Part shown: piece after piece, positions 21,526 to 39,860 of the stretch
Numbering within the stretch: the first letter of the stretch is position 1
Layout of the letters: every line of letters starts with the position of its first letter
From: the human T2T-CHM13v2.0 reference genome, Homo sapiens
DNA length: 64,000 nucleotides
NCBI RefSeq assembly: GCF_009914755.1
Contig: NC_060927.1
Strand: one strand, 5' to 3'
The notes under the pieces: model-generated
Databases searched by the model: none
What the model was told of the DNA's origin: nothing
What the model saw: only the letters and a program-made list of their open reading frames with translations
Made by a program: the position numbers and the translations under genes

Positions 21526-23402
21526 AGTTCATATTATCTTTAAACCAAACCTTCAAGAACTTGGTTATTTATCTTTGTACCTGATCTCACTACTCCACCC
21601 CCAACTACCACTGAAGTACTTAGAATAGTAGCCAGAATAAAGTTGGCACATCTAATAAATGTTTGCTAATCTATTTATTATGTGTCCAAAGAAAGATGCT
21701 ATTAAAATGCCAATAGAATTCAAAAGGAAAGACTCTGTTCAGTTGGAGGAATCAGAGGTGCCCTTTGAATGACCACAGAGGAGGCAGCATTTGTGGTGCA
21801 CTTGGATGAATCATTGAGATTTGATGTTATGTCATGCGCCCCCACAACAGGGGAGGTAGGTAGATCACATTCTCTAATCTGACGTTTATAGATGATACTT
21901 TGCTGTAACAAAGCATGAAGGCGAAGTGACTTGCTCAAGGTCACACTACTGTAGCAACATCAGTGGGCTAGGAACTGAGTGCTCCCAGCTTCTAGACCAG
22001 TTCCATCTGGTTGGGATGGCATAGACCCTGCAGCTTTACAGACAGCTTGTTTAGCACGTTTGGCCCTCATTCTGGGTTATGGGCTATGAACAGACTAAAG
22101 TTCCTCTCCCGCAGCCTCTAAGTGCCATTGTGCACTCCATGTTTGGGCATCAATCTGCCTTGCAGCCGTCATTGGCAATGAAATTAAAGCTCAGTGCAGA
22201 GCAGATGGACCATTTCCCCATTCTGGCAGGCACACATTAGGCTCCCCTACCGCATCTAGGAGTTGCTAACACCAGCAGCAAAGGAAGGGAAGCATGACCA
22301 ACAGCTATGAGAGTGCCGTTTCCACGGCAGGCAGTGTCAGCAACTCCTCCATCTGGGGCAGCAGCAACAAGGAGACATGCCTGTGCATAGCAGGAGCACT
22401 CAAAAAACGCCCCATGAATGAACCTGGCATTTTGAATATAAAAAGGCTTCAAGATAGCCAATATGAGAAAAATCATAGTGAGAACTTCCTCACACTTACT
22501 GTACAGTTTCATATTATGTTTATTTTCAATTACACACCACACTGGGGGTGGGAAGCACCACTGTCTTTTCAGGTTTGACCCTTTAACAGTTGTGATCTGT
22601 TTCAATTTTTGTTTAAAGCTTAATGTAGAGTAGGAAAATGTATTTTACTATCTTTCCTTTGGTTGAGGTCATTTTAAGAACAAAAATACTTTTAACCTCT
22701 GTGGGACCATAGCCACCCTTTTGTATCAAGCAGGTAAAACAAAATGTCAATGTTATTGCTATGGTATTTTTGGTTTTGCCCAAATTATTTCAAATATTAA
22801 CTTGGAGCAGACAATGAGATTATGTGGATGGCAAATTTTTGACATTTCCTAGGCTATGCAAAGGACATTCTCTGGGTTATTATTCCTTCACTTTTTTTCA
22901 AAAAAACTTTCGGCTATTGGAAATTTGACAAATTTAATTTCTTGGCATGGCTGTATCAACTACAATACAACCGTTTTCTGAGTTGCACTCAAACACTGTT
23001 CTCAAAACCAGCAGAACTTTTCAAAATTAGCCACATGCCTAAAATATTATATTTCAAGTCACCCAAGGCAGAAATACAGAAAGAAATTATGCCAGATATA
23101 GAATGAGAAACACAACAATGGAATGAGGAAGAATTTCAGACAATACTCAGTTGAGGTCAGGGTTCAGGCACTGCTGAGGAGGATATAAATTATTACAAAC
23201 TTTCTTGCTGAAAATTTGCTATATTCATAAAATGAAATAAATGTCACGCAGCCATTAAAAATCATGTGACAAATCAGTTCAACTGGAAAGATGATCATAA
23301 TGAAATGTTAAAATAGAAAAAAAGCAAATTATAAAATTGTGAAAAGCATGATCCCATTTTAATAAAATATACATATTAAAGGGTATATATAGATTTTCCA
23401 CA

Positions 23403-23470
23403 TGTGTGTGTATATATATGTGGGTGTGGGTGTGTGTGTGTGTGTGTATGCGTGTGTGTGTGTTTGTGTG
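23403..23470. repeat. Imperfect (TG)n microsatellite
   Basis: Seen directly. Confidence 0.9.
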
Positions 23471-23494
23471 AATAGAGAAAAGTATGTATATGGG

Positions 23495-24205
23495 CAGTCA
23501 ATTCTCATTATTTGCATTATTTATGTTATGTAAAGTTGAATTAGCCACTATTCCTATGGGAAATAAAGAATTAGGTTTCTGTGAGCCTCTGGTCACAATG
23601 TTTCTGTCAACCAATCAAAACAAAACCTTGTTTTATGTGTGTTTTATGTGTGTTTCTGTTTGAAATATGACTTCATATATATTTTCACAAATAATTATAT
23701 GCATTATTTCTTTATAATAACACACTAGTCAAGAAGAGTTTAAATTTTTCCTGAACCTGGGTAAAATGAATATAAATTTCTCTGACTTTCAGCCTCAGAA
23801 CAATGTTGTCCATTATGCCTATTTTTATCAGGCATCATCTCATGAATCCCAAATTCAGCCATTTCTCCCTTCCATAGCTTTATCAGGCACTACTGATGCT
23901 ACTTTAGCACTTTCCAGAGCAACCTCACCTACAGGCACATATCAGCCAATTTCCTCTTTCTTTCTCTGGATGTACCCTATTGTGGATTGCTTAGCATTGG
24001 GCTTAGAGTTAACAGCATTAAAACTCATGCCTGAATGAAGCTTATCTAACACATGCATTTTTTCCATAATGCACATCACAGCTTTCCTGAGCTTAAAAAC
24101 ACTGGACAGCACTTCAGCAGTACTCTTGGGAGCGATTTTAAAGAGAAAAATTGCCAAGAAAAAGTACAAAAATGGGAAGAAGTGGCACTAAAGTGACAAT
24201 GAAAA
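23495..24205 (-). mobile_element. Tigger6/MER82-family DNA transposon, truncated on the right
   Basis: Left TIR cagtcaattctcattatttgc; ORF 23942-24169 APKSTAEVLSSVFKLRKAVMCIMEKMHVLDKLHSGMS resembles a Tigger transposase N-terminal HTH; no right TIR found. Confidence 0.8.
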
Positions 24206-24234
24206 AAAATTCTTGGAAATATATATATATGTAT

Positions 24235-24442
24235 ATTTCAGAGCCTTTCCTCATTACACCCATCCTTGCTTACCTCTCTTACATTTCCGCCCCATCTTTG
24301 TTTCTTCTTTCTCCTTAAGTTTATTTCCTTCTTGTAAAAGAAAATTTAGCTAAGATTGATAGGTTCAAGAAGTAAAACCAAAAAAAAAAAACAGTTACAA
24401 TCAAAAATTACCAGTGAAAATTGTGGTACACACATACACACA
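24235..24442 (+). repeat. Left arm of long inverted repeat
   Basis: atttcagagcctttcctcattacacccatccttgc...ttaccagtgaaaattgtggtacacac is the reverse complement of 28325-28554. Confidence 0.95.
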
Positions 24443-24467
24443 TATATATATACACGTGTGTGTGTGT

Positions 24468-25968
24468 ATACATATATCCAAGAGGATATATATATATATA
24501 TCCATCCAAGAGGACATATATATATGTATATATATCCAAGAGGATATATATATATATATATATATATCCAAGAGGATATATATATATGTATATATATCCA
24601 AGAGGATATATATATATGTATATATATCCAAGAGGATATATATATATGTATATATATCCAAGAGGATATATATATATGTATATATATCCAAGAGGATATA
24701 TATATATATGTATATATATCCAAGAGGATATATATATATGTATATATATCCAAGAGGATATATATATATGTATATATATCCAAGAGGATATATATATATG
24801 TATATATATCCAAGAGGATATATATATGTATATATATCCAAGAGGATATATATATATGTATATATATCCAAGAGGATATATATATGTATATATATCCAAG
24901 AGGATATATATATGTATATATATCCAAGAGGATATATATATATAAGAGGATATATATATATATCCAAGAGGATATATATACATATATCTTATATCCATCC
25001 AAGAGGATATATATATACACATCCATCCAAGAGGATATATATATCCAAGAGGATACATATATATATCCAAGAGGATACATATATATATCCAAGAGGATAC
25101 ATATATATATCCAAGAGGATATATATATACACAAGGGGATATATAGACACAAGAGGATATATATATAGACACAAGAGGATATATATATATCCAAGAGGAT
25201 ATATATATATATCTCCAAGAGGATATATATATATACACAAGAGGATATATATATATACACACAAGAGGATATATATATGTACACACAAGAGGATATATAT
25301 ATATATATATCCAAGAGGATATATATATATATATCCAAGAGGATATATATATATATATATATCCAAGAGGATATATATATATATATATATATCCAAGAGG
25401 ATATATATATATATATATATATCCAAGAGGATATATATATATATATATATATCCAAGAGGATATATATATATATATATATATCCAAGAGGATATATATAT
25501 ATATATATATATCCAAGAGGATATATATATATATATATATATCCAAGAGGATATATATATATATATATATATCCAAGAGGATATATATATATATATATAT
25601 ATCCAAGAGGATATATATATATATATATATATCCAAGAGGATATATATATATATATATATCCAAGGGGATATATATATATATATATATCCAAGGGGATAT
25701 ATATATATATATATCCAAGGGGATATATATATATATATATCCAAGGGGATATATATATATATATATCCAAGGGGATATATATATATATATATCCAAGGGG
25801 ATATATATATATATATATCCAAGGGGATATATATATATATCTCCAAGGGGATATATATATATATATCTCCAAGGGGATATATATATATATCTCCAAGGGG
25901 ATATATATATATATATATCTCCAAGAGGGGATATATATATATATATATATATATATCTCCAAGAGGGG

Positions 25969-26000
<32 letters not shown>

Positions 26001-26611
26001 CCAAGAGGGGATATATATATATATACACACACAAGAGGTGATATATATACATATATATATCTCCAAGAGGTGATTGATATATATATATATATATCTCCAA
26101 GAGGAGATGTATATATATATATATATATATATATCCAAGAGGAGATATATATATATATATATATATATCCAAGAGGAGATATATATATCTCCAAGAGGAT
26201 ATATATATATATATCTCTCTCTCCAAGAGGATATATATATATCTCTCTCCAAGAGGATATATATATATATATCTCTCTCTCTACAAGAGGAGATATATAT
26301 ATATATATATCTCCAAGAGGAGATATATATATATATATATCTCCAAAAGGAGATATATATATATATATCTCCTCTAGGAGAGATATATATATATATATAT
26401 ATATCTCCAAGAGGAGATATATATATATATATATATATCTCCTCTAGGAGATATATATATATATCTCCAAGAGGAGATATATATATATATCTCCAAGAGG
26501 AGATATATATATATATCTCCAAGAGGAGATATATATATATATCTCCAAGAGGAGATATATATATATATATATATCTCCAAGAGGAGATATATATATATAT
26601 ATATCTCCAAG

Positions 26612-26654
<43 letters not shown>

Positions 26655-26805
26655 CAAGAGGGATATATATATATATATATCTCCAAGAGGGATATATATA
26701 TATATATCTCTCCAAGAGGGATATATATATATATATATCTCCAAGAGGGATATATATATATATATATCTCCAAGAGGGATATATATATATATATATATCT
26801 CCAAG

Positions 26806-26846
<41 letters not shown>

Positions 26847-26883
26847 CAAGAGGGATATATATATATATATATATATCTCCAAG

Positions 26884-26926
<43 letters not shown>

Positions 26927-28320
26927 CAAGAGGGATATATATATATATCTCCAAGAGGGATATATATATATATCTCCAAGAGGGATATATATATATATAT
27001 ATCTCCAAGAGGGATACATATATATATATCTATCTCCAAGAGGGATATATATATATAATATATCTATCTCCAAGAGGAGATAGATATATATATATCTCTC
27101 CAAGAAGAGACAGATACATATATATCTCTCCAAGAGGAGACATATATATATCTCCAAGAGGATATATATATATATATATCTCCAAGAGGATATATATATA
27201 TATATATCTCCAAGAGGATATATATATATATATATCTCTCCAAGAGGATATATATATATATATATATCTCTCCAAGAGGATATATATATATATATATATA
27301 TATCTCCAAGAGGATATATATATATATATATATCTCCAAGAGGATATATATATATCTCTCCAAGAGGATATATATACATATATCTCTCTCCAAGAGGATA
27401 TATATATCTCTCTCCACGAGGATATATATACATATATCTCTCTCCAAGAGGATATATATACATATATCTCTCTCCAAGAGGATATATATATATATATCTC
27501 CAAGAGGGATATATATATATATATCCAAGAGGATATATATACACATATATATATCCAAGAGGATATATATACACATATATATATCCAAGAGGATATATCT
27601 ATATATATATATATCCAAGAGGATATATCTATATATATATATATCCAAGAGGATATATCTATATATATATATATATCCAAGAGGATATATCTATATATAT
27701 ATATATATCCAAGAGGATATATCTATATATATATATATCCAAGAGGATATATATATATATATATATATCCAAGAGGATATATATATATATATATATATCC
27801 AAGAGGATATATATATATATATATATCCAAGAGGATATATCTATATATATATATATATATATCCAAGAGGATATATCTATATATATATATATAGCCAAGA
27901 GGATATATCTATATATATATATATATCCAAGAGGATATATCTATATATATATATATATCCAAGAGGATATATCTATATATATATATATATCCAAGAGGAT
28001 ATATCTATATATATATATATATCCAAGAGGATATATCTATATATAGATATATCCAAGAGGATATATCTATATATAGATATATCCAAGAGGATATATCTAT
28101 ATATAGATATATCCAAGAGGATATATCTATATATAGATATATATAGATATATATCTCCTTCGTTACATATATATATCCATATCCAAGATATATATATTAT
28201 ATATATATCCATATCCAAGATATATATATTATATATATATCCATATCCAAGATATATATATTATATATATATCCATATCCAAGATATATATATATTATAT
28301 ATATAATGTATCTCCAAGAG
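24468..28320. repeat. AT-rich VNTR, unit (TA)n-CC-AAGA-GG-(AT)n, mostly ~20-45 bp, roughly 130-140 units (estimated from length)
   Basis: Seen directly; variant cores ccaagagga, ccaagggga, ctccaagaggaga, ctccaagaggga occur in blocks. Confidence 0.98.
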
Positions 28321-28324
28321 TTTC

Positions 28325-28355
<31 letters not shown>

Positions 28356-28554
28356 TGTATACCACAATTTTCACTGGTAACTTTTTATCATAACTCTTCC
28401 TTCTTTGGTTTCACTTCTCTTTGTACCTATCAATCTTAGCTAAATTTTCTTTTACAAGAAGGAAATAAATTAAAGGAAAAAGAAGAAACAAAGATGCAGT
28501 CGAAGTGTAAGGGAGATAAGCAAGGATGGGTGTAGTGAGGAAAGGCTTTGAAAT
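28325..28554 (-). repeat. Right arm of long inverted repeat, including (GT)n
   Basis: gtgtataccacaattttcactggtaa...gcaaggatgggtgtagtgaggaaaggctttgaaat; shares a 45-bp perfect stretch with the left arm. Confidence 0.95.
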
Positions 28555-29706
28555 TGTCCCAAACAGCAGATTTAATAACAAATACAGTCTCTAAAGAAAA
28601 TGTTTATAATCAGTTTCTTCCTTAGAGACAAGTAACAAATAGAAAAAATACATGTAAGTGTTGGCCATTGAAGGAAAGAATGATTATAGAAGATATTTAG
28701 GGTTTACTTTTTTACTGCTTATATCATTTTCTGATCAAAATTTTATCTAATAACTTGATTTACTAATAACAATATGCACCACTTGCAATTCTGGGCTCTA
28801 GGGCCTCGGCATTAAGAAATTGGATAAGGTCTTTAATCCCTTGAATTTCATAAAAATGGGAAGGTGTGAGACCTTCAAAGTGGCACATCTTTAATTACTC
28901 ACATACTTAAGTTGAGGTGTGGGCAGTTTCTCCGAGTCTGCACTAACTCCGAGTCTGAATGAACTTTAACTTCATTTAAAGAAAATCTCCATGCTTAGAC
29001 AAAGAGGCTAGAAATGAATCATAGTGAGTGACATGCTCTGATTCTCATTCCTCGTCTCTATGATGTCAATGTTTCAAGGCAGTTTCCTGTGGTGCCAGAG
29101 CAATAGTAGCATTGTGCATTCTTCTCAGGTCATCACATGGAACGAGCAATAGAAATCCAATATTATTTTCTAAAGCACAGAAGAAATAAAATTATATTTC
29201 TTCTATGCAACATCATTTCCCCATAAATCTTTCTTAACAGATATTATTTATCTGAGTCAACACTTCCTTACAGTCTATCCACATCCTATTAGTCCTAGTT
29301 TAGAGTTGGCAAAACAAAAGATAGATTTTCATGTGGGAAGAACTGTTGAATGGCAAATGTAGCCAAGATGGCTTGTCATTTTGCCTTTTCGTGCCCAATA
29401 TAGATCAACTGTGCCACTGATCAGCTAAAGCAAATCCTCCCATCCATAAAGAGTAGAAAGTGTTATACCACAGTAAAAGAGTCCTTTATGTTCATGCACT
29501 ACTCAACAAGCATTCTTGCCGAGAGCCTAGTAGCTGCTGGGAGCTATGCCAAGCACTGAAGAAAAGCTATAAAAAAAATATAGACAATGTCCCTAATATC
29601 ACGCATTGACCATTTGGTTGAAGGAGATACACAATAAACAAACAAACACACAAAGTAATTTCAGATTGTGAGGACTATGAAGAAAAAATTTTAAGAACAG
29701 AAAGTA

Positions 29707-39615: not shown

Positions 39616-39860
39616 CCAGATCCCTTACCCCTGATCTCATGGCCAGATCCCTTATTTATTTATCTCATGGACAGATTCCTTATCTCTTTATCTCATAGCT
39701 AAATTTCTTACCTCCTTACTTCATGGAGAGATCCCTTACCTCCTTACCTCATGACCAGATCCCTTACCTCCTTACCTCATTGCTAAATTTCTTACCTACT
39801 CACTCCATAGCTAAATTCCTTACTTACTCGCCTCTAGCTAAATCCTTTACCTCCTTCAGG
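39616..39860. repeat. Degenerate 28-bp minisatellite, ~9 copies, within L2
   Basis: Units such as ccagatcccttacctccttacctcattg and ctaaatttcttacctccttacttcatgg. Confidence 0.85.

What the first reader, a model, noticed from the sequence alone, without database searches (positions are those of the whole stretch)
24468..28320. VNTR units are hairpins with compensatory stem changes and an apparently flipped loop
Seen: the base unit is ATATCC-AAGA-GGATAT. Variants keep the pairing by changing both sides: ATATCTCC-AAGA-GGAGATAT (e.g. 26301-26330), ATATATCTCTCC-TCTA-GGAGAGATATAT (26361-26388) and ATATAGATATATCC-AAGA-GGATATATCTATAT (28041-28130). The TCTA loop is one base from TCTT, the reverse complement of AAGA. 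Other blocks are uncompensated. Inference: quasi-palindrome template switching copies a mutation from one arm to the other and can invert the loop, so hairpin-templated repair would be shaping this minisatellite.
Basis: partly seen in the sequence, partly recalled or inferred. Interest (0 to 1): 0.75.

Follow-up and report, generated by a model that had tools for sequence, protein, structure and literature searches.

The report
AT-rich hairpin minisatellite within inverted repeat
This is a 3.9-kb, very AT-rich tandem repeat in an intron of KCNMB2 whose 30-base units can each fold into a small hairpin and which sits between two inverted copies of its flank; it is an ordinary unstable minisatellite, and hairpin-guided repair is not shown.

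Summary
The array is real: TRF gives 24467-28305, period 30, 130 copies. I parsed 131 units of the form (TA)n-CC-AAGA-GG-(TA)n. Perfect units fold as DNA hairpins (-7.8 to -11.5 kcal/mol, z -4.2 to -5.9).

Three kinds of complementary double change exist: CTCC/GGAG, CTATCTCC/GGAGATAG, and G-9/C+9. Two loops read TCTA. One quoted string is misread: the real unit at 26361-26388 has one CT on the left and two AG on the right.

Compensation is the exception. Only 13 of 90 variant units, and 4 of 49 variant runs, pair perfectly. The excess over free shuffling (0 of 5000) disappears when right arms are slid by 1-3 units (9-14 units). Founder-level tests are marginal (P 0.044 and 0.021).

New here: the array lies between 208-nt inverted arms of 86% identity, found nowhere else in the genome.

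Best reading: a FRA16B-like, slippage-driven minisatellite with built-in hairpin capacity. A few template-switch events, including inversion of one whole unit, remain possible but unproven.

The parts
24235..24442 (+). Left arm of the flanking inverted repeat (208 nt). It overlaps the KCNMB2-AS1 exon at 24274-24327 in the hub's gene table.
   Evidence: blastn against the reverse complement of the right flank: 86.3% over 211 columns, E 1.65e-61. Alignment. Only two genome matches, itself and its partner.
24423..24466 (.). Junction microsatellites (CA)n-(TA)n-(GT)n between the left arm and the first unit. They mirror the (GT)n on the right.
   Evidence: Sequence; alignment.
24467..28323 (+). AT-rich minisatellite: 131 units of (TA)n-CC-AAGA-GG-(TA)n, all in one orientation. 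GC content is 0.20-0.26.
   Evidence: TRF 24467-28305, period 30, 130.3 copies. Unit tables. Composition. The last core, CTCC-AAGA-G, has its loop at 28316.
25299..25660 (+). Block of 12 default perfect units (ATCC-AAGA-GGAT), mostly with an exact 30-nt period. It is followed by 7 AAGG-loop units with the same arms.
   Evidence: rows 31-49, with 18 of 18 pairs.
26301..26600 (+). CTCC/GGAG block (units 66-75). Nine units are perfectly compensated and one (unit 68) is imperfect.
   Evidence: Fold -8.9 kcal/mol, z -5.0.
26361..26388 (+). Unit 68: ATATCTCC-TCTA-GGAGAGATAT. It carries a TCTA loop and the only right-hand (AG)2 in the array.
   Evidence: GGAGAG occurs once in the array and CTCTCC 12 times.
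26431..26460 (+). Unit 70: CTCC-TCTA-GGAG, the second TCTA loop, with perfectly paired arms.
   Evidence: Fold -7.9 kcal/mol.
26600..27060 (+). Block of 14 units CTCC-AAGA-GGGAT (units 76-89). One extra G puts the right arm out of register, so the units are uncompensated and have odd periods.
   Evidence: rows 75-88. runs 76-89..
27058..27091 (+). Unit 90: CTATCTCC-AAGA-GGAGATAG, compensated at both +/-4 and +/-8, with 14 contiguous pairs.
   Evidence: Fold -11.5 kcal/mol, z -5.9.
27140..27500 (+). Uncompensated block (CT)1-3CC-AAGA-GGAT (units 93-104).
   Evidence: runs 93-104. A unit of this kind folds at only -4.9 kcal/mol, z -1.65.
27583..28040 (+). Units with C at +9 on the right arm only (12 units, uncompensated), interrupted by three default units.
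   Evidence: character (9,'C') in units 108-112 and 116-125..
28041..28132 (+). Three units (123-125) with G at -9 and C at +9. The 26-nt spacer between them is itself a perfect palindrome.
   Evidence: Fold -8.9 kcal/mol.
28171..28305 (+). Four terminal variant units CCATATCC-AAGA-TATATATATTATA. They lack the right-hand GG and form no clamp.
   Evidence: rows 140-143..
28325..28358 (.). (GT)17 microsatellite, the mirror of the left (CA)n.
   Evidence: TRF; alignment.
28346..28554 (-). Right arm of the flanking inverted repeat.
   Evidence: 86% identity on the minus strand, E 5.7e-63..

Best explanation
This is a locus-specific, non-coding, AT-rich minisatellite in an intron of KCNMB2 and KCNMB2-AS1, with 131 units of about 30 nt. 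It lies at the centre of an old 208-nt inverted duplication of its own flank.

Each unit can form a hairpin by construction. (TA)n is self-complementary, and a CC...GG clamp brackets a 4-nt AAGA loop. The spacer GG(TA)nCC is equally palindromic, so the whole array is a long quasi-palindrome around any loop or any spacer centre.

I infer that the array grows and changes mainly in two ways. One is block duplication and deletion of units, by replication slippage or unequal exchange at structure-prone DNA. The other is dinucleotide slippage of TA, and of CT on the left or AG on the right of the core.

The compensated arms are three founder states that were then copied in blocks. The commonest, CTCC/GGAG, is what mirror-image slippage in mirror-image contexts (TCC to TCTCC, GGA to GGAGA) would give.

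Hairpin-templated correction is not a pervasive force here. At most a few template-switch events, the best candidate being inversion of a whole unit that gave the TCTA loops, are superimposed. No function is indicated. The expected effect is local replication difficulty and hypervariability.
For: Shown:
- The array and its units.
- Units sit in runs: 131 units fall into 56 runs and 39 arm-pair types.
- 114 of 130 unit periods are even, as dinucleotide slippage predicts.
- The left arm has (CT)n with n from 0 to 4, the right arm has (AG)n with n from 0 to 2, and they mostly do not match. Only 11 of the 52 units with a left (CT)n are matched, in 4 of 26 variant runs.
- 77 of 90 variant units are not perfectly paired.
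- Sliding the arms by 1-3 units gives as many compensated units (9-14) as the true register (13).
- 34 of 130 shifts reach the observed 3 mirrored characters. Beside those 3 complementary double changes there are 2 same-position changes that are not complementary.
- Folding: -8.2 kcal/mol in the loop register against -5.7 in the spacer register for a perfect unit. In 95-121-nt pieces, multi-unit fold-backs with AAGA/AAGA internal loops win.
- Inverted repeats of up to 342 nt at 79% lie inside the array.
- The flanking arms are 86% identical and unique in the genome.
- The unit 18-mer is unique to this locus: 49 of 51 genome hits are in the array, and the other two are isolated.
- No Rfam family matches.

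From print:
- A preprint describes a variation cluster of more than 3 kb in a KCNMB2 intron, with 135 tandem repeats of which 116 have AT motifs, variable across 100 HiFi samples. It gives no coordinates, so it is probably but not certainly this locus (passages).
- AT-rich minisatellites form secondary structure, stall polymerases and suffer deletions (PMC2875025, passages).
Against: - Founder-level permutations are nominally enriched for compensated pairs: types 3 against 0.92 expected (P 0.044), and runs 4 against 1.36 expected (P 0.021).
- In one search only 2 of 130 circular shifts reach 3 perfect variant types.
- Unit 90 joins a left arm seen in 2 of 131 units to the only exactly complementary right arm. 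This compensation exists only in the loop register, not the spacer register.
- G-9 is the exact mirror of C+9 inside the block that already carried C+9.
- AAGA to TCTA needs three substitutions without an inversion. The only (AG)2 right arm coincides with a TCTA loop, a 2 in 131 coincidence that I noted post hoc.
- That the array arose by amplification of a palindrome centre is an inference from one haplotype. The right end is not a clean mirror of the left.
Confidence: 0.62

Rival explanations
1. Quasi-palindrome template switching at the unit hairpins is a major force in this array. It routinely copies a change from one arm to the other and so keeps the units paired.
For: - Three complementary double changes exist.
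- Free shuffling of arms never reaches the observed 13 compensated units (0 of 5000).
- The mechanism is established elsewhere. It homogenises inverted-repeat arms and inverts spacers (PMC8604942, start of abstract in the listing; PMC8794818, passages).
Against: - 77 of 90 variant units and 45 of 49 variant runs are uncompensated.
- A 14-unit block (GGGAT) and 12 units with (CT)2-4 persist unrepaired.
- Shifts of 1-3 units do as well as the true register.
- 34 of 130 shifts reach the observed number of mirrored characters.
Confidence: 0.08
2. A few discrete template-switch events, in a hairpin or across the fork, lie on top of ordinary slippage. One inverted a whole (CT)2CC-loop-GGAG unit, which with one further substitution gave the TCTA units. 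One made unit 90's right arm a copy of its left arm. One created G-9 opposite C+9. This adds to the best explanation rather than excluding it.
For: - The only GGAGAG in the array lies in TCTA unit 68. The mirror type, CTCTCC-AAGA-GGAG, exists as unit 92.
- Every other loop variant is a single substitution.
- Unit 90's arms are complementary over 14 nt, while its neighbours each carry only one half.
- Founder-level P values are 0.02-0.04.
- Loop inversions, typically of four-nucleotide loops, and multiple compensatory changes are reported footprints of template switching (PMC8794818, passages).
Against: - TCTA is not the exact reverse complement of AAGA. No TCTT or TAGA loop exists in this haplotype: zero TAGAGG, CCTCTT or TCTTGG.
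- Each event is a single case picked out after the fact.
- The +/-4 and +/-9 pairs are equally symmetric in the spacer register.
- There is no ancestral state to give polarity.
Confidence: 0.35
3. The hairpins are maintained by selection, because the DNA or the intronic RNA structure has a function.
For: Units fold well. The array is transcribed within introns on both strands according to the hub's gene table.
Against: - Most variant units break the stem.
- There is no Rfam match.
- The unit occurs at no other locus.
- The locus is probably the hypervariable KCNMB2 cluster described.
Confidence: 0.03
4. The flanking arms are the terminal inverted repeats of a non-autonomous DNA transposon whose AT-rich centre expanded.
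For: Two inverted arms of 208 nt bracket the array.
Against: - The arm finds only itself and its partner in the 3.1-Gb assembly. That tool warns its counts are lower bounds.
- NCBI's repeat mask does not cover most of either arm, according to the hub's table.
- I saw no target-site duplication at the outer ends in the alignment, by eye.
Confidence: 0.05

Closest known systems
AT-rich minisatellites of the rare non-folate-sensitive fragile sites (FRA16B; FRA10B)
   Same: A tandem array of about 30-nt, very AT-rich units, predicted to fold into multiple hairpins, and kilobases long. FRA16B has a 33-bp unit, forms secondary structure, stalls polymerases and undergoes deletions (PMC2875025, passages).
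   Different: The unit here has a CCAAGAGG core that is absent, by eye, from the FRA16B unit printed in that paper. No cytogenetic fragility is known at this place as far as I recall. The 131 copies lie between normal FRA16B alleles (7-12 copies) and expressing alleles (up to 2000). Unlike what I read about FRA16B, this array lies between inverted copies of its flank.
Palindromic AT-rich repeats (PATRR11, PATRR22 and others)
   Same: AT-rich DNA with inverted symmetry that could extrude hairpins or cruciforms. Such sites are polymorphic (PMC4940405, passages).
   Different: PATRRs are several hundred bp long, more than 90% AT, and nearly perfect palindromes without a spacer. Here the arms are 86% identical and 3.9 kb apart, the centre is a direct tandem array, and AT content is 74-80%. 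The listed PATRR on chromosome 3 is at 3p14, not on 3q.
Template-switch mutations at quasi-palindromes (arm homogenisation, loop or spacer inversion)
   Same: The reported footprints are compensatory changes, several at once, and inversion of four-nucleotide loops (PMC8794818, passages; PMC8604942, abstract start). The array offers this kind of substrate 131 times over.
   Different: Those studies infer events on phylogenies with ancestral states. Here there is one haplotype, the loop is one base off an exact inversion, and most arm variants are uncorrected.
Flex1 (AT)n of common fragile site FRA16D
   Same: Long TA runs that form hairpins or cruciforms and hinder replication (titles and abstract starts only: PMC11797062, PMC12972899).
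   Different: Flex1 is a simple dinucleotide run. Here the TA runs are cut every 14-66 nt (most often 26) by a GC clamp and loop, which sets a 30-nt period.

Membership tests
AT-rich minisatellite of the FRA16B/FRA10B kind | Tandem array of AT-rich units a few tens of bases long | tested here: met
   Period 30, 130.3 copies. GC content 0.20-0.26.
AT-rich minisatellite of the FRA16B/FRA10B kind | Predicted stable secondary structure of the single strand | tested here: met
   Units fold at -7.8 to -11.5 kcal/mol, z -4.2 to -5.9. Pieces of 95-121 nt fold at -33 to -37 kcal/mol.
AT-rich minisatellite of the FRA16B/FRA10B kind | Copy-number polymorphism or expansion among people | not testable with these tools
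   Only one haplotype is held. A preprint reports a highly variable KCNMB2 intron cluster that is probably this locus, but gives no coordinates in the text.
AT-rich minisatellite of the FRA16B/FRA10B kind | Cytogenetic fragile site inducible by distamycin A or BrdU | not testable with these tools
   This needs cytogenetics.
PATRR | Nearly perfect palindrome without a spacer | tested here: not met
   The arms are 86% identical and 3.9 kb apart. The units between them are direct repeats. Definition.
PATRR | More than 90% AT, several hundred bp long | tested here: not met
   74-80% AT. The structure spans 4.3 kb.
PATRR | Breakpoint of constitutional translocations | not testable with these tools
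   None of the listed sites is on 3q.
Template-switch (quasi-palindrome) mutation footprint | The changed bases equal the reverse complement of a nearby template | tested here: inconclusive
   Arm changes at +/-4, +/-8 and +/-9 are exact complements. Loop TCTA is one base off the reverse complement of AAGA, and no TAGA or TCTT loop is present.
Template-switch (quasi-palindrome) mutation footprint | Excess of complementary double changes over a null that keeps relatedness | tested here: inconclusive
   Founder-level P values are 0.044 and 0.021. Near shifts equal the true register, and 34 of 130 shifts reach the observed character count.
Template-switch (quasi-palindrome) mutation footprint | Ancestral and derived states show that several changes arose in one step | not testable with these tools
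   No second haplotype or outgroup is available.
Non-autonomous DNA transposon (MITE) with terminal inverted repeats | Many dispersed copies in the genome | tested here: not met
   Only 2 matches, the arm itself and its partner. The tool's counts are lower bounds.

The most novel reading that the evidence does not exclude
The array began as the centre of an old palindrome, arm-(CA)n-(TA)n-CC-AAGA-GG-(TA)n-(TG)n-arm', and that hairpin-shaped centre was amplified about 130-fold. Since then it has recorded template-switch events inside a human VNTR. These include inversion of a whole hairpin unit (the TCTA units) and multi-site arm-to-arm copying (unit 90). Population assemblies of this one locus could then measure the rate of hairpin-templated mutation against slippage.
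Probability: 0.2. Interest if true: 0.55.

Novelty: new member of a known kind. Interest (0 to 1): 0.3.

Why it matters
As it stands this is an ordinary, if tidy, example of a structure-prone AT-rich minisatellite, and probably one already flagged as a hard-to-genotype variation cluster.

Its value is practical. The array offers 131 near-identical quasi-palindromes in one locus, with visible uncompensated and compensated states. That makes it a good place to test, in existing long-read assemblies, how often template switching acts in human tandem repeats compared with slippage. The inverted flanks also make it a candidate for asking how palindromes and AT-rich arrays give rise to one another.

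Tried and rejected
- Other copies of the unit. The 18-mer search found 49 of 51 hits in this array. I read the two others (chromosomes 6 and 15) and they are isolated matches, not arrays.
- Transposon origin of the arms. There are no further genome copies.
- Known RNA families. None reached gathering score in 24000-28800.
- Mirror symmetry of the array as a whole. All cores point the same way, and the end blocks are not mirror images, by eye.
- Free shuffling as a null. I rejected it as too liberal because blocks inflate it.
- The first character table. It was muddied by out-of-register right arms and by the terminal units, so I repeated it with those masked.
- The first unit parse. It picked up spurious TCTA inside spacers and missed one CC-less unit. 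I corrected this, and unit numbers after 15 rise by one.
- Literature searches. In the held library they found no paper that describes hairpin-templated change in this or another human VNTR.
Full report
**What is there**

Tandem Repeats Finder reports one array at 24467-28305, with period 30, 130.3 copies, 81% matches and 11% indels. No comparable array exists elsewhere in the window.

I anchored units on the 4-nt loop and obtained 131 units after correcting a first parse. The first parse had picked up TCTA inside spacers and missed one unit without CC. Unit numbers below are those.

The unit is (TA)n-CC-AAGA-GG-(TA)n. The loops are AAGA in 116 units, AAGG in 11, TCTA in 2, AAAA in 1 and ACGA in 1. 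Of 130 unit periods, 114 are even, which fits length change by dinucleotide slippage. GC content is 0.20-0.26 across the array.

**The units as hairpins**

With 10 positions on each side of the loop, 54 of 131 units pair perfectly. Of these, 41 have the default arms and 13 have variant arms.

Folded as DNA, the units behave as follows:
- A default unit gives -7.8 kcal/mol (z -4.2; 0 of 200 shuffles as good).
- CTCC/GGAG gives -8.9 kcal/mol.
- Unit 90 gives -11.5 kcal/mol.
- The G-9/C+9 unit gives -8.9 kcal/mol.
- An uncompensated CTCC/GGAT unit gives only -4.9 kcal/mol (z -1.65).

The hairpin is not a special property of the unit register. The spacer GG(TA)nCC is a palindrome too, at -5.7 against -8.2 kcal/mol for the loop register. 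In pieces of 95-121 nt the best folds are fold-backs over several units with AAGA/AAGA internal loops. Inverted repeats of up to 342 nt at 79% lie within the array.

- CTCC-AAGA-GGAG is there. Units 66, 67 and 69-75 are perfect.
- TAGATATATCC-AAGA-GGATATATCTA is there in units 123-125.
- The string given for 26361-26388 is not there. The real unit 68 is ATATCTCC-TCTA-GGAGAGATAT, one CT against two AG.

**Is compensation more than chance?**

- Of 90 units whose arms differ from the default, 13 pair perfectly. Of 49 variant runs, 4 do. There are 3 distinct compensated arm pairs among 39 arm-pair types.
- Free shuffling of right arms never reaches 13 units (0 of 5000). This null ignores blocks. 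Sliding the right arms by 1, 2 or 3 units either way gives 9-14 compensated units and 1-3 types.
- Over all circular shifts, 12 of 130 reach 13 units and 2 of 130 reach 3 types.
- I also counted single mirrored characters, after masking out-of-register arms and the five terminal units. The observed 3 types (C-4/G+4, C-8/G+8, G-9/C+9) are reached by 34 of 130 shifts. Beside them stand 2 same-position double changes that are not complementary.
- Shuffling at founder level gives 3 types against 0.92 expected (P 0.044) and 4 runs against 1.36 expected (P 0.021).

So there is a marginal sign that mirrored variants lie near one another. It is not specific to the unit register, and it rests on three founders.

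**The commonest pair**

The left arm carries (CT)n with n from 0 to 4, and the right arm (AG)n with n from 0 to 2.
- 52 units have a left (CT)n. Only 11 have the same n on the right, in 4 of 26 variant runs.
- The 12 units with (CT)2-4 are never matched.
- A 14-unit block has GGGAT on the right, which throws the arm out of register.

I infer that TCC to TCTCC and GGA to GGAGA are the same slippage in mirror-image contexts. Their joint presence inside a CTCC domain that covers units 51-105 then needs no templating.

**What speaks for single template-switch events**

- Unit 90 joins a left arm found in 2 units (89, 90) to the only exactly complementary right arm. Neither adjoining spacer is symmetric, so this case exists only in the loop register.
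- G-9 arose within the block that already had C+9. It is equally symmetric in the spacer register, where the 26-nt spacer is a perfect palindrome.
- The only GGAGAG in the array lies in TCTA unit 68, while CTCTCC occurs 12 times on the left. Unit 68 is the reverse complement of a (CT)2CC-loop-GGAG unit, a type that exists as unit 92, apart from one loop base.
- Inversion plus one substitution is more economical than three loop substitutions plus an AG gain. But no TCTT or TAGA loop is present, and I noticed the coincidence after the fact.
- Template switching is documented to give compensatory changes, several at once, and inversions of mostly four-nucleotide loops (PMC8794818, passages). It also homogenises arms and inverts spacers (PMC8604942, abstract start in the listing).

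**Surroundings**

The left flank 24235-24442 matches the reverse complement of 28346-28554 at 86.3% over 211 columns (E 1.65e-61; alignment). Mirrored (CA)n and (GT)n runs sit next to the array.

In the 3.1-Gb assembly the arm finds only itself and its partner. The unit 18-mer finds 49 of 51 hits in this array, and the two others are isolated. No Rfam family matches. The left arm overlaps an annotated KCNMB2-AS1 exon in the hub's table.

I infer that the array is the amplified centre of an old inverted duplication. The reverse order, a fold-back duplication of the flank triggered by the array, is not excluded. The right end is not a clean mirror of the left.

**Comparison with known kinds**

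The closest kind is the AT-rich minisatellite of the rare fragile sites, as described in PMC2875025 (passages):
- FRA16B has a 33-bp unit, with 7-12 copies normally and up to 2000 when expressed.
- It forms secondary structure, stalls polymerases and suffers deletions.

This locus is not a PATRR. PATRRs are near-perfect, spacer-free palindromes of several hundred bp with more than 90% AT (PMC4940405, passages).

A preprint describes a hypervariable cluster of more than 3 kb in a KCNMB2 intron, with 135 tandem repeats of which 116 have AT motifs, across 100 HiFi samples. It does not mention hairpins or palindromes and gives no coordinates in its text. It is probably this locus.

Searches found no paper in the held library on hairpin-templated change in a human VNTR.

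**Verdict**

- The claim that hairpin-templated repair shapes the array is not supported.
- A few template-switch events remain possible, and existing population assemblies could test them directly.
- The locus is a new member of a known kind and of modest interest.

Noticed in passing
24235-24442 and 28346-28554: The array is bracketed by inverted copies of its flank, 86% identical and found nowhere else in the genome. Mirrored (CA)n and (GT)n runs lie next to the array.
   Followed up: yes
24274-24327: An annotated exon of the lncRNA KCNMB2-AS1 (hub's table) lies inside the left inverted arm. Its diverged mirror copy should lie near 28460-28515 on the other strand.
   Followed up: no
28171-28305: Four terminal units have a different form, CCATATCC-AAGA-TATATATATTATA, with period 32. 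They lack the right-hand GG and cannot form the clamp.
   Followed up: partly
27072-27160 (units 90-92): Right-arm positions +6 and +8 occur in all four combinations (T/G, C/G, C/T and the default T/T) within three adjacent units plus the default. This points to exchange or recurrent change between neighbouring units.
   Followed up: no
23399-23474: A (TG)n/(TGGG)n microsatellite 1 kb upstream is 80-86% complementary to the (CA)n at 24428-24462. This is probably just simple-sequence complementarity.
   Followed up: no
39637-39808: Two copies of an 84-nt tandem unit, 80% matches.
   Followed up: no
25923-26110 (units 54-59): The right arm varies as GG-NG-AT, with N being G, T or A (GGGGAT, GGTGAT, GGAGAT), in consecutive units at the start of the CTCC domain. 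CTCC/GGGG pairs with one G-T wobble.
   Followed up: no
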